From: an uncultured Candidatus Saccharibacteria bacterium
GTDB taxonomy: Bacteria; Patescibacteriota; Minisyncoccia; UBA6257; 2-01-FULL-56-20
DNA length: 47,420 nt
Assembly: GCA_964555255.1 (NCBI GenBank)
Contig: CAZKRG010000003.1
Coordinates: 1 to 47,420, forward strand
Direction: 5' to 3'
A program made the translations under genes and the position numbers. Below the pieces are notes generated by a model. That model worked only from the letters and a program-made list of their open reading frames with translations. It was not told the DNA's origin and searched no databases. Each line of letters starts with the position of its first letter. Positions within the stretch are counted from its first letter, which is position 1. Below are positions 44,606 to 47,420 of the stretch, piece after piece.

Positions 44606-45053
44606 GTGACCCACTCCCCGTGCTTCAGCGCGGGGCTTCTTTTCGGGTTTCCATGTGCCCGCGTACGTGCAAAAGAAGATTGTTCAAAACAGAGCGGTGG
44701 TCTGGGGCTTCTGTTCTTTCTTGTCCTGCCACTCAATATATTTCTTGATCTGTGCCTCGTTGAGTCCCACTGAGGACACGAAATACCCGACGCTCCAGAT
44801 GCCGTTCTTCTCAAGATACATGTCTCGGATGAATTTGAATTCTTTGCGAAGTGCCATGCTCGAAGTACCTTTGAGTTTCTGGACGGCATCTGCGATGGCG
44901 ATGGAGGGTGGAATCTCCATCTGAATATGGACATGATCCTCATCGGTATTCACCGTGTGGATTATAGAGCGTCGGGTATTTTGTGCAGGTGGCATAGAGA
45001 CTTTCCTTGAGCCGAGCCTTCAGTCGGGCTCCGGGCTTCCATTGAGGAAGCCC
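44606..45053 (-). mobile_element. Degenerate IS200/IS605-family element
   Basis: Minus-strand right end GAAGCCCCGCGCTGAAGCACGGGGAGTGGGTCAC (hairpin plus TCAC); tnpA remnant; GGGCTTCC/GGAAGCCC hairpin at 45033-45053 as a possible left boundary. Confidence 0.75.
44684..45025 (-). pseudogene. tnpA: IS200-type Y1 HUH transposase remnant
   Basis: DEDHVH (HUH), LKGTSS, WSVGYFVSSVG, IKKYIEWQ; a +1 frameshift near 44961-44965 separates ...KYPTLY from IHTVN...; the N-terminus is missing. Confidence 0.85.
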
Positions 45054-45089: not shown

Positions 45090-45163
45090 TGGAGCGAGTG
45101 AAGGGAATCGAACCCTCGTCTATAGCTTGGGAAGCTATCGTACTGCCACTGTACTACACTCGC
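45090..45163 (-). tRNA. tRNA-Gly (CCC)
   Basis: GCGAGTGTAGTACAGTGGCAGTACGATAGCTTCCCAAGCTATAGACGAGGGTTCGATTCCCTTCACTCGCTCCA. Confidence 0.96.
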
Positions 45164-46024: not shown

Positions 46025-46582
46025 CTACGGAACCTTTTTCACTTGTGTCCCTGTCCACGTAAACCCCGGAGAAAATAAAAGAATCCTGTTATTTTGTTTT
46101 GCCTCTGCGAGCCACTTCGAAAAATCCTCCCCTTTCAAAAAAAGTTGTCCTATAAGGATCTCGCGCTCTGCTTGAGGAATGAGCACCATCCGCCGAAATT
46201 CTTGCGCATTGAATCCATATACAACTTCTGCCGCCTGCGCAAGTTTAGAGTCTTCTTCTACTACAGATTGCACCCGTTCAGTTACCAACGTTTCTGCAGT
46301 CTTTCCCATCTCCTTTTCAATTTCTTTATGCACAAGAGCGGATTCAATAAGTCCTTCAAGCACCGCCCCTTCTACATCCGACCGGGGAGAGGTACTTGAA
46401 ACCCCATAAACCTCGGTCGCATGGGAATAATACTGAAGAACCGCTCGATATTGTTCTTGAAAATCACGAGCAAAAAGAAAGCTCCCGCCGACAGAAGCTA
46501 CAGGATAATATCCTCCCCGCACCACAAATGTGATCCCTAATGCTACGACCACGAGAGAAAAGAAAATAAAATAGTGTTTCAT
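46025..46582 (-). CDS. SurA N-terminal-domain-like membrane-anchored protein
   Basis: TM helix, PVASVGG, VLEGLIESALV and a helical chaperone-like pattern ending in FSKWLAE. Confidence 0.6.
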   Translation of the reverse strand: MKHYFIFFSLVVVALGITFVVRGGYYPVASVGGSFLFARDFQEQYRAVLQYYSHATEVYGVSSTSPRSDVEGAVLEGLIESALVHKEIEKEMGKTAETLVTERVQSVVEEDSKLAQAAEVVYGFNAQEFRRMVLIPQAEREILIGQLFLKGEDFSKWLAEAKQNNRILLFSPGFTWTGTQVKKVP

Positions 46583-46872
46583 GGGATCGTGGAAGAAGAG
46601 GAGGTGGCCAGGGGAGGAACGAGAATTAAAAGTTTCTCCTGTGCTCCCCGATAATTGAACCGCGTACGCATTTCTTTCTCCAAATTTTCCGGCCGGTTGA
46701 AATAATTGAGATTCGCTTGAAGAGCAGCAGCTTCCTTCTGTGCGTCAGTAAGCTGCCGCGTAGACTCAGAAACTTCCCTCTGCAACACTCCATTCTGTTT
46801 CATAAACCGCGCGATCTCCACACCGGTAACAATAAGGATAAGCGAGAGAGCCAAAATAGCAGCGATGCGCAT
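46579..46872 (-). CDS. Septum formation initiator (FtsB/DivIC-like)
   Basis: TM helix plus coiled coil plus PENLEKEMRTRFNY...EKLLI. Confidence 0.75.
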   Translation of the reverse strand: MRIAAILALSLILIVTGVEIARFMKQNGVLQREVSESTRQLTDAQKEAAALQANLNYFNRPENLEKEMRTRFNYRGAQEKLLILVPPLATSSSSTIP

Positions 46873-46911
46873 ACCCACATCTTACAATTTTCAATTTACA
46901 ATTTCTAATTT

Positions 46912-47351
46912 TCAATATGCGCGTTCATGCACAAACGAAGCATACCCGCGCCACGAAGCGAGCACATTTCCGAGATATCCCTCTGGCAATTTTCCTTGTA
47001 TAGCAAGTGCTGCAAGTCGCCGTTTCTTTTTCTTGAACCGCCTGACGGTGGATTTCCGGAGTTGCCGTCTCCCGCATCGGAGCACATATCCCAGGAAATC
47101 GATGCCGCATGCCGCCGGAAAAAGTTCGGATTTCTTGGGATGGAGTTCAAGGTTGAGCGCCTCCCAAAGAAAATCCCGTATCCGCTCCTTGGTTTCGCGC
47201 AGATGCTCTTTATCAGAACCAAGAATAATAAAATCATCCATGTAGCGGATATAGTAGCGCTCGTGAAGCTCGCGTTTCACGAAGTGATCGAACGCGTTCA
47301 GATAGACGTTCGCGAAAAGCTGGCTCGTGAGATTGCCGATGGGAACCCCAC
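46912..47351 (-). CDS. DGR-type reverse transcriptase, motif 4 to C-terminus (N-terminal half not present in the window)
   Basis: GVPIGNLTSQLFANVYL (the DGR-type xGxxxSQ variant), YIRYMDD, LELHPKK, GIDFLGY, SWRGY. Confidence 0.9.
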
Positions 47352-47420
47352 ATTGTTGTTCGCAGTGCCCGTGTCCCAATTCAGGTTCAGCGTGAATGGA
47401 CCAGCATTCGAACCATTGTT
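47343..47420 (-). repeat. DGR template-repeat-like segment (cut by the window edge)
   Basis: Reads NNGSNAGPFTLNLNWDTGTANNNVGF, with 8 of 26 codons AAY; this is the pattern of CLec/FGE-type DGR repeats that end in N(I/V)GFR. Confidence 0.8.

What the first reader, a model, noticed from the sequence alone, without database searches (positions are those of the whole stretch)
46912..47420. DGR template repeat fused directly onto RT motif 4
Seen: the last 78 nt of the window (minus strand) translate as NNGSNAGPFTLNLNWDTGTANNNVGF. They pass, through the shared bases GGGGTTCC, straight into ...G VPIGNLTSQ of a reverse transcriptase read in another frame. Known: xGxxxSQ plus YxDD marks DGR RTs, AAY-rich ...N(I/V)GFR repeats are TRs for C-type-lectin-fold targets, and DGRs are common in CPR. 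A TR normally sits outside or at the edge of the RT gene. Inference: the most likely cause is a microhomology deletion that removed the TR 3' end, the spacer and RT motifs 1-3, leaving a silenced DGR. The RT frame also stays stop-free across the TR (QWFECWSIHAEPELGHGHCEQQCG), so a TR nested inside an RT gene cannot be excluded from this window. A misassembly is the third option.
Basis: partly seen in the sequence, partly recalled or inferred. Interest (0 to 1): 0.8.

Follow-up and report, generated by a model that had tools for sequence, protein, structure and literature searches.

The report
Deletion-killed DGR: template fused to enzyme stub
The end of this contig holds the wreck of a bacterial targeted-mutation cassette (a diversity-generating retroelement): about 0.9 kb has been lost, so part of the template repeat now abuts the rear half of the reverse transcriptase, which is ordinary decay of a known kind of element.

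Summary
On the minus strand, 47420-47342 is a DGR template-type repeat. At GGGGTTCC (47349-47342) it runs straight into reverse transcriptase (RT) motif 4. The RT stub matches only Pfam RVT_1 positions 111-204 of 205.

A cognate variable repeat lies at the end of contig C20. There, 14 of 16 mismatches fall on adenines of the window copy (P = 9e-9).

Intact relatives, one of the same genus, read target, avd, TR, spacer, RT N-half, (GA)n tract, RT C-half. By that layout the window lacks about 0.93-0.95 kb: the TR 3' end, the spacer and RT motifs 1-3.

Independent contigs from two sequencing runs of one sample bridge the joint without a branch. Only 8 bases are shared across it, so a misassembly is unlikely.

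The window is the whole contig, so what lies upstream of the repeat is unknown. The bin holds no cognate avd, no RT N-half and no target body.

Verdict: a real, probably recent deletion left a dead DGR. Earlier notes of this scan describe similar decayed DGRs, and the (GA)n RT switch, on other DNA. Interest is low.

The parts
47342..47420 (-). Template-repeat (TR) fragment of a DGR, 79 nt. It is cut at its 5' side by the contig end and at its 3' side by the deletion. It lacks the GC-rich/IMH*-type 3' end (GCTGTGCCCGGTA...) seen in relatives' TRs.
   Evidence: It is 95% identical over 79 nt to the TR of G004:C7. 14 of 16 mismatches to the VR on C20 are at its adenines. Asn codons AAC/AAT sit at the variable places.
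47342..47349 (-). The joint: GGGGTTCC, shared by the TR (..GTGGGGTTCC|GCTG..) and RT motif 4 (GGG GTT CC|C ATC GGC). This is the crossover zone of the deletion.
   Evidence: Relatives read GGN ATH CCN here, so the perfect microhomology may be 2-4 nt rather than 8. The joint is bridged by contigs of runs X1 (record 1, 46400-47395) and X2 (record 9, 46522-47395), with no joint, indel or other letter at this place.
46912..47349 (-). RT remnant: motif 4 (PIGNLTSQ), motif 5 (YMDD), motifs 6-7 and thumb, with the stop codon at 46912-46914. Motifs 1-3, including the first catalytic Asp block (KCDISKYF in relatives), are absent.
   Evidence: Pfam RVT_1 profile positions 111-204 of 205 only, against 7-205 in the intact relative G021. 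It is 62-71% identical to the RT C-halves of G020, G035, G004, G026, G021 and G014.
47298..47420 (-). The TR reading frame running out-of-frame into RT DNA (..NNNVGF then PSAISRASFSRTSI, stop). This is not a gene if the repeat is the TR. It would be the new C-terminus of a target protein if the repeat were an unwritten VR (rival 1).
   Evidence: No Pfam family matches.

Best explanation
This is a DGR cassette of the avd-TR-RT type that has been killed by one deletion of about 0.93-0.95 kb. The deletion runs from just inside the 3' part of the template repeat to the codons for Gly-Ile/Val-Pro at the start of RT motif 4. The crossover lies in a short shared stretch (at most GGGGTTCC). It removed the TR's GC-rich 3' end, the spacer RNA region that follows the TR, RT motifs 1-3 and the (GA)n tract that this RT subfamily carries. 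What is left cannot work. The RT stub lacks the finger motifs and the first catalytic aspartate block. The TR stub lacks the 3' part from which cDNA synthesis starts in the studied DGR. The variable repeat on contig C20 keeps the adenine-specific scar of earlier activity and should now be frozen, unless another cassette of this type exists unassembled. Shown: the repeat, the joint, the missing motifs, the VR, the intact layout in relatives, and the joint in independent contigs. Inferred: that one deletion did it, that it is recent, and that the cassette is silent.
For: (1) TR identity: 14 of 16 TR/VR mismatches fall at adenines of the window copy (P = 9.1e-9), and the copy is 75 of 79 identical to the TR of same-genus G004. 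(2) The intact layout in relatives is target (N_methyl pilin-type N-terminus plus FGE-sulfatase fold, VR at the C-terminus), bAvd, TR, spacer, RT N-half, (GA)n, RT C-half. (3) RT homology in the window starts at RVT_1 profile position 111 of 205, exactly at the joint. (4) The joint is real in the reads. Logan contigs of runs X1 (2286 nt, depth 10.9) and X2 (874 nt, depth 6.2) cover 46400/46522-47395 with 53 nt on the TR side and no joint, indel or other letter there. The other pieces that stop at 47339-47343 carry 2-3 mismatches and belong to other TRs or RTs in the sample, some much more abundant (depth up to 81). A de Bruijn misjoin would need a shared k-mer, and only 8 bases are shared. (5) The contig end is explained. 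Summed depth rises from about 11 to 47-94 over 47275-47414 in X1, because the TR and motif 4 are nearly identical in co-occurring relatives. (6) In the bin (98.8% complete), RVT_1 is found only on C1 and C3, and an RT N-half of this subfamily is not found. (7) Little decay: the stub has no stop or frameshift over 147 codons, and 4 private changes at 60 otherwise invariant residues, against 0-3 of 56-59 in nine relatives. This points to a recent event. (8) Need for the lost parts: in the Bordetella phage DGR, cDNA is primed from the TR RNA and depends on the catalytic centre of the RT and on Avd, and IMH* lies at the TR 3' end (PMC5703328; abstract, introduction and legend of Fig. 1 read).
Against: All four runs come from one sample and one study, probably the source of the assembly, so the joint is confirmed in the reads but not in an independent population. 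Contigs cannot give the share of cells. Tables 7 and 8 were cut (11 loose ends and 17 pieces not shown), so a minor intact allele is not excluded. Nothing upstream of 47420 is known. The cognate avd (bAvd only on C1) and the target body (no FGE-sulfatase match) are missing from the bin. The single-deletion picture therefore rests on relatives that are only 62-71% identical in the RT. The window copy differs from the VR at two non-adenine places (ACT GCG against AGT ACG), where 4 of 4 relatives' TRs read AAT ACG. So either the TR stub has changed since the VR was last written, or that VR was written from another TR. No near-identical RT exists in 5.8 billion protein clusters (best 70-71%), so there is no second assembly of this allele.
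Confidence: 0.7

Rival explanations
1. The deletion is real but larger. On this reading the adenine-rich copy in the window is not the TR. It is a hardly written variable repeat at the end of a target gene. The deletion then runs from the VR 3' part through avd, the TR and the spacer into RT motif 4, about 1.5-2 kb on the layouts of G035 and G004. The target protein would end in ..NNNVGF plus 14 out-of-frame residues. The cassette would be dead in this case too.
For: The copy differs from the TR consensus of 4 of 4 like relatives only at two ancestral adenines (AAT ACG to ACT GCG), which is the kind of change DGRs write. G014:C13's VR has GCG at the same codon. Lightly written VRs exist in this family: G096:C16 keeps 18 A where its TR has 26, and the VR end at the start of G026:C6 is unchanged over its last three Asn codons. 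In 6 relatives the VR lies about 0.6-1.1 kb upstream of the TR on the same strand.
Against: The copy has 21 A in 79 nt, like the relatives' TRs (21-26 A, counted over a 79-nt span offset by one base). Typical VRs have 8-11. Only 2 of about 23 adenines would have been written. Two VR-type 3' ends already exist elsewhere in the bin (C20, C39), both followed by non-DGR genes. This fits remote targets and a separate avd-TR-RT core.
Confidence: 0.12
2. The joint is an artefact: a chimeric library molecule or an assembly error between the TR of one organism and the RT of another. The sample holds several relatives with near-identical TR and motif 4 DNA.
For: The joint lies 79 nt from a contig end, in a stretch where summed depth shows several co-occurring relatives. 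All runs are from one sample. Neither a 41-nt stretch of the RT next to the joint nor a 24-nt word across the joint has any exact match in metagenome contigs, and the 24-nt word has none in genome contigs. No near-identical protein is known.
Against: Two separately assembled runs give unbranched contigs across the joint, at the depth of the rest of the contig (10.9 and 6.2). Only 8 bases are shared, too few for a k-mer misjoin. If the true path ran on into motif 3 it should be assembled as well, and it should break the contig at 47342. No such piece without mismatches is listed, and the bin has no RT N-half of this subfamily.
Confidence: 0.08
3. The TR lies inside an RT gene, either nested or inserted, with RT motifs 1-3 lying upstream of the repeat beyond the contig end.
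For: The RT frame has no stop across the 79 nt, and nothing is known upstream of 47420.
Against: The same frame is also open across the VR on C20, where no RT is present. 26 stop-free codons are not unusual. The repeat lacks its own 3' end, so it is not a complete TR. In the relatives where I read the repeats (G004, G035, G026, G014:C13, G095, G096), the TR lies upstream of the whole RT gene. The 6 homologues I inspected have ordinary RT sequence before motif 4.
Confidence: 0.03

Closest known systems
DGRs of Patescibacteria (CPR) with the core order avd-TR-RT (architecture B1 of Wu et al. 2018, PMC5758913; passages read). Intact examples were fetched here: G004:C7 and G035:C13.
   Same: Same RT subfamily (62-71% identity in the C-half). 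A near-identical TR (95% over 79 nt). The same type of VR end..VGFRCAR stop. The target of the relatives carries an N_methyl pilin-type N-terminus and an FGE-sulfatase fold.
   Different: The window copy has lost the TR 3' end, the spacer, RT motifs 1-3 and the (GA)n tract. Its VR-bearing gene ends (C20, C39) are not next to the cassette. The cognate avd is not found in the bin.
Bordetella phage BPP-1 DGR (mtd-avd-TR-brt), the studied prototype (PMC5703328; abstract, introduction and Fig. 1 legend read).
   Same: A TR/VR pair with adenine-specific differences. The VR lies at the 3' end of the target gene, followed by a GC-rich stretch and a flank that can fold (RNA parameters, no control). The gene order is avd-TR-RT in the intact relatives.
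   Different: It is a cellular element of an ultra-small bacterium, not a phage. The target is pilin-like rather than a tail fibre. The copy here is inactive by loss of parts that the prototype needs (RT catalytic centre, TR 3' region).
Decayed or fragmentary DGRs noted earlier in this scan on other genomes (e1-1011210, e1-2069983, e1-4440945; AI notes, not checked by me).
   Same: In each, a deletion of about 0.75-1 kb takes out part of the RT together with the TR or its surroundings and leaves a frozen target.
   Different: Here the breakpoints lie inside the TR and at motif 4, so a recognisable TR piece is welded to the RT stub.

Membership tests
Diversity-generating retroelement (DGR) | A template/variable repeat pair whose differences fall almost only on adenines of the template. 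| tested here: met
   14 of 16 mismatches over 79 nt are at adenines of the window copy. The VR is at G000:C20:14889-14967. P = 9.1e-9.
Diversity-generating retroelement (DGR) | A complete reverse transcriptase (motifs 1-7) of the DGR clade, with motif 4 xGxxxSQ and motif 5 YxDD. These motif names come from my own knowledge. | tested here: not met
   Motif 4 (IGNLTSQ) and YMDD are present. However, RVT_1 matches only profile positions 111-204 of 205, so motifs 1-3 are absent. The intact relative covers positions 7-205.
Diversity-generating retroelement (DGR) | A TR with its own 3' end (GC-rich element and IMH*) and the downstream spacer. | tested here: not met
   The relatives' TRs continue GCTGTGCCCGGTATTCATC... 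plus a conserved spacer. The window copy stops at GGGGTTCC and passes into RT DNA.
Diversity-generating retroelement (DGR) | The VR lies at the 3' end of a target gene with a C-type-lectin/FGE fold. | tested here: inconclusive
   The end of C20 encodes ..VFLRGGTWGNGSGAGPFALYLSWGTGSTVSDVGFRCAR and then a stop. This is 77% identical to the last 61 residues of the G004 target, which has an FGE-sulfatase match. The body of the gene is not in the bin.
Diversity-generating retroelement (DGR) | The accessory gene avd next to the TR. | tested here: inconclusive
   bAvd (PF22296) is found only on C1, beside the other DGR. The G004 avd finds only that gene, at 30% identity. The place where avd should lie is beyond the contig end.
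Diversity-generating retroelement (DGR) | Current activity, that is, adenine-site variation of the VR within the population. | not testable with these tools
   Only contigs of the runs could be laid, once, on the window.
RT subfamily with an internal (GA)n tract | A pure (GA)n run between RT motif 2a and motif 3. | not testable with these tools
   All 11 close relatives' loci carry the tract. In the window this part of the gene is deleted. Membership rests on 62-71% identity of the C-half, against 44-51% to the tract-free DGR RTs.

The most novel reading that the evidence does not exclude
The element may have inflicted the deletion on itself. The DGR RT, copying the avd-TR-RT transcript, would have jumped from the motif 4 codons (GGN ATH CC) to the look-alike GGGGTTCC in the TR. 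The shortened cDNA would then have replaced the chromosomal copy. That would be a natural record of template switching and self-destruction by a DGR enzyme. The two changes of the TR stub at ancestral adenines, 21-23 nt from the joint, and the Ile-to-Val (A to G) change at the joint would then be marks of adenine-mutagenic copying.
Probability: 0.04. Interest if true: 0.6.

Novelty: new member of a known kind. Interest (0 to 1): 0.22.

Why it matters
It matters little beyond annotation. The 168-codon frame should not be annotated as a working RT, and this bin should not be counted as carrying an active DGR of this type. It does carry a second DGR on contig C1 that looks complete. The locus is a clean example of how DGRs die in ultra-small bacteria: by a short-homology deletion between the template repeat and the enzyme gene. 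It also shows that contigs break in TRs because co-occurring relatives share them. If the VR on C20 proves frozen in the reads, the pair would give a dated 'last written' state of a pilin-like surface protein.

Tried and rejected
1. Exact-word scans gave no matches. They covered a 41-nt stretch of the RT next to the joint (metagenome contigs) and a 24-nt word across the joint (metagenome contigs; genome contigs). No other assembly could extend the contig. The tool notes that records of the window's own genome may be left out.

2. The homologue search found 1171 proteins at E <= 1e-20, with the best at only 70-71% identity. There is therefore no near-identical intact or truncated allele. Only lengths of 92-294 aa were searched, so an in-frame full-length allele of about 350 aa could not appear. 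I did not run the 'longer' search.

3. I tested for adenine-biased private changes in the RT stub, which would mark a DGR-made cDNA patch. Only 2 of 5 private changes at 98 otherwise invariant columns are at A, and 35 of the 98 columns are A (Fisher p = 1.0). There is no support, but the test has little power. G100 was dropped from this test because its protein is the same as G035 in this stretch.

4. I tested for decay of the stub. It has 4 of 60 private residue changes, against 0-3 of 56-59 in nine relatives (G100 and G137 dropped, the latter for a 13-codon insertion). This is not a clear outlier.

5. I looked for neighbours of the C3 end among contig ends. No 15-mers are shared with any other contig end. 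The Avd-like genes on C2 and C22 (PF05635) are generic four-helix-bundle genes, not orthologues of the relatives' bAvd.

6. In runs X3 and X4, no contig bridges the joint. Cover there is thin and patchy (depth 0-8 in X3), so this says nothing either way.

7. Three paper searches and passages of PMC8144416 and PMC6642488 gave nothing on TR-RT fusions, truncated DGR RTs or repeat tracts in DGR RTs.

8. I folded the VR flank of C20. This used RNA parameters and no shuffle control, so it is not used as evidence.

Full report
What is there. The window is the whole of contig C3 of a 1.03-Mb, 119-contig genome bin (98.8% complete, 0.9% contaminated). Read on the minus strand, its last 79 bases (47420-47342) are AAC AAT GGT TCG AAT ... 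AAC AAC AAT GTG GGG TTC C. This translates as NNGSNAGPFTLNLNWDTGTANNNVGF. From GGGGTTCC (47349-47342) the sequence passes, in another frame, into GVPIGNLTSQLFANVYLN...YIRYMDDFIILG and on to a stop at 46912-46914. Pfam RVT_1 matches this frame only from profile position 111 to 204 of 205 (E 5.4e-13). Reverse-transcriptase homology therefore begins at the joint, and motifs 1-3 are missing.

The repeat is a DGR template-type repeat. A search of the whole bin found one other copy, at the end of contig C20 (also the only hit by short-word blastn). It closes a reading frame that runs off the contig end and ends ..VFLRGGTWGNGSGAGPFALYLSWGTGSTVSDVGFRCAR, then a stop. Over the 79 shared bases the two copies differ at 16 places. 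Of these, 14 are adenines of the window copy, which has 21 A in 79 (P = 9.1e-9). The window copy is therefore the template-like partner and C20 the variable one.

What the intact element looks like. Close homologues of the RT stub (62-71% identity) occur in G020, G035, G004 (same genus), G026, G021 and G014. In all, 29 of the 61 genomes searched, counting G000, had some match. In G004:C7 and G035:C13 the layout on one strand is as follows:
- a target gene with a pilin-type N-terminal methylation motif and an FGE-sulfatase fold, whose C-terminus is the VR
- a bAvd gene (two four-helix genes in G004)
- the TR (..FLRGGNWNNGSNAGAFTLNLNWDTGNTNNNVGFRCARYSS..)
- a spacer of about 330 nt with a conserved part
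- the RT N-half
- a (GA)n tract
- the RT C-half, starting ..YCLKCDISKYF and reaching GIPIGNLTSQ about 45 codons later

The TR of G004 is 75 of 79 identical to the window copy. By the coordinates, I count 950 nt in G004 and 931 nt in G035 between the CC of the TR's GGGGTTCC (GGTTTCC in G035) and the CC of the RT's Gly-Ile-Pro codons. That stretch is what the window lacks: the TR's GC-rich 3' end, the spacer, RT motifs 1-3 and the (GA)n tract.

The crossover. All 6 close relatives examined read GG(G/T/C) AT(A/C) CC(G/C), that is Gly-Ile-Pro, where the window reads GGG GTT CCC. If the lost RT had Ile here, the G of GTT comes from the TR, and the perfect overlap was TTCC or only CC.

Is the joint real? 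The stretch is held by 4 runs, all from one sample of one study, which may be the source of the bin. Their independently built contigs were laid on 46400-47420. In X1 a 2286-nt contig (depth 10.9) covers 46400-47395, and in X2 an 874-nt contig (depth 6.2) covers 46522-47395. Both carry 53 nt of the TR side. No joint, indel or other letter is reported at the junction. The differences listed are at 46657, 47054 and 47079 (the last seen only in X3). Other pieces stop at 47339-47343 and run on into ordinary RT sequence (..GLPLGNLTSQ, depth 48-81) or into an intact TR or VR 3' end (GFRCARYSS..). These carry 2-3 mismatches over 35-55 nt and so belong to other TRs or RTs in the sample. In X3 and X4 cover is too thin to bridge.

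Because only 8 bases are shared, a k-mer misjoin cannot make this joint. A chimeric molecule would be a minor tip beside the true path, which is not seen. The caveats are that there is only one sample, that contigs cannot give allele shares, and that the tables were truncated (11 loose ends and 17 pieces not shown).

The same table explains why the contig ends in the TR. Summed depth climbs from about 11 to 47-94 across 47275-47414 in X1, because the TR and motif 4 DNA are nearly identical among co-occurring relatives. The contig of X1 and that of X2 both stop at 47395.

What is missing from the bin. RVT_1 is found only on C3 and on C1. The G004 RT N-half and avd find only the C1 genes, at 36% and 30% identity. 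bAvd is found only on C1, and no FGE-sulfatase fold is found at all. The G004 target finds only its last 61 residues on C20, plus pilin-like N-termini of paralogues. The smallest contig kept is 1509 bases, so short fragments of a tangled DGR locus could have been dropped. It is therefore open whether avd and the rest of the TR still lie upstream of 47420.

State of the remnant. The stub has no stop or frameshift over 147 codons. It has 4 private changes at 60 residues that are invariant in nine relatives, which themselves have 0-3 of 56-59. The loss therefore looks recent.

Function is lost on two counts. The enzyme lacks the fingers and the first catalytic aspartate block. The TR lacks its 3' end and the spacer. 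In the Bordetella phage DGR, cDNA is primed from the TR RNA and needs the RT catalytic centre and Avd, and IMH* sits at the TR 3' end (PMC5703328; abstract, introduction and Fig. 1 legend).

Two loose threads. First, the two non-adenine mismatches (window ACT GCG, VR AGT ACG) lie where 4 of 4 relatives' TRs of this type read AAT ACG. The window copy has therefore itself changed at two ancestral adenines. This could be drift of a dead TR. It could mean that the VR was written from another, unassembled TR. Or the window copy could be a barely written VR, in which case the deletion would be larger (rival 1). Second, contig C39 begins with exactly GGGGTTCC. It then runs 55 nt identical to the VR flank of C20 (GFRCAR, TAG, GC-rich flank) before diverging. 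It may be a second target end or a strain variant, and I could not link it to C3.

Comparison with what is known. The intact relatives fit architecture B1 (avd-TR-RT) of Wu et al. 2018. The second DGR of this bin, on C1, fits their B3 (TR, avd on the other strand, RT), which they report for 90% of their CPR set (PMC5758913, passages). As a DGR the window copy fails the tests for a complete RT and a complete TR. It is a remnant of a member, not a variant architecture. Earlier notes of this scan describe several deletion-killed DGRs in ultra-small bacteria and archaea on other DNA. I did not check those notes. My three paper searches found no printed account of a TR-to-motif-4 fusion, but decayed retroelements are ordinary.

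Verdict. The finding is an ordinary, probably recent, deletion-killed DGR. My odds are:
- deletion with the repeat being the TR: about 0.70
- a larger deletion starting in a VR: about 0.12
- an artefact: about 0.08
- a nested TR: about 0.03
- the remainder unassigned

Noticed in passing
Related loci L024-L034 (G021:C26, G020:C12, G061:C42, G035:C13, G004:C7, G100:C4, G095:C12, G096:C16, G014:C13, G026:C6, G137:C70); not in the window: All 11 RT genes of the subfamily to which the window's stub belongs carry a pure (GA)n run of 23-48 nt at the same place, between motif 2a and motif 3. The N-half and C-half are in one frame in 2 loci, in different frames in 7, and undetermined in 2. The 5 more distant DGR RTs examined have no tract. 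This looks like a slipped-strand on/off switch of the DGR enzyme. Earlier notes of this scan found the same on other genomes. Two paper searches found nothing in print.
   Followed up: partly
G000:C1:50636-53338 (own genome, another contig): This is a second DGR that looks complete. It has an RT on the minus strand with a 100-N scaffold gap flanked by a duplicated 55-nt stretch, a bAvd gene on the plus strand (51878-52189), a TR at 52229-52362 and a VR at 52694-52827. 23 of 25 mismatches are at template adenines. Its repeat is unrelated to the window's.
   Followed up: partly
G000:C39:1-55 and G000:C20:14834-14896: Contig C39 starts with GGGGTTCC and is identical for 55 nt to the VR 3' end and flank of C20, and then diverges into other genes. 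It could be a second target end, a strain variant or a graph neighbour. This is unresolved.
   Followed up: partly
window 47363 and 47365 (minus-strand codons ACT GCG): The template-type copy differs from the TR consensus of 4 of 4 like relatives (AAT ACG) at two ancestral adenines. The VR on C20 keeps ACG.
   Followed up: partly
window 44687-44995 (-) and 45090-45163 (-): A 103-codon frame matches the IS200-like Y1 transposase family only from profile position 39 to 121 of 121 (E 2.7e-20). It is therefore probably a 5'-truncated transposase. It lies about 95 nt from a tRNA-Gly(CCC) gene.
   Followed up: no
G000:C22:13304-13633 (+): A gene like the 23S-rRNA-intervening-sequence protein (a four-helix bundle) is interrupted by one in-frame TGA. 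It is not an orthologue of the relatives' bAvd.
   Followed up: no
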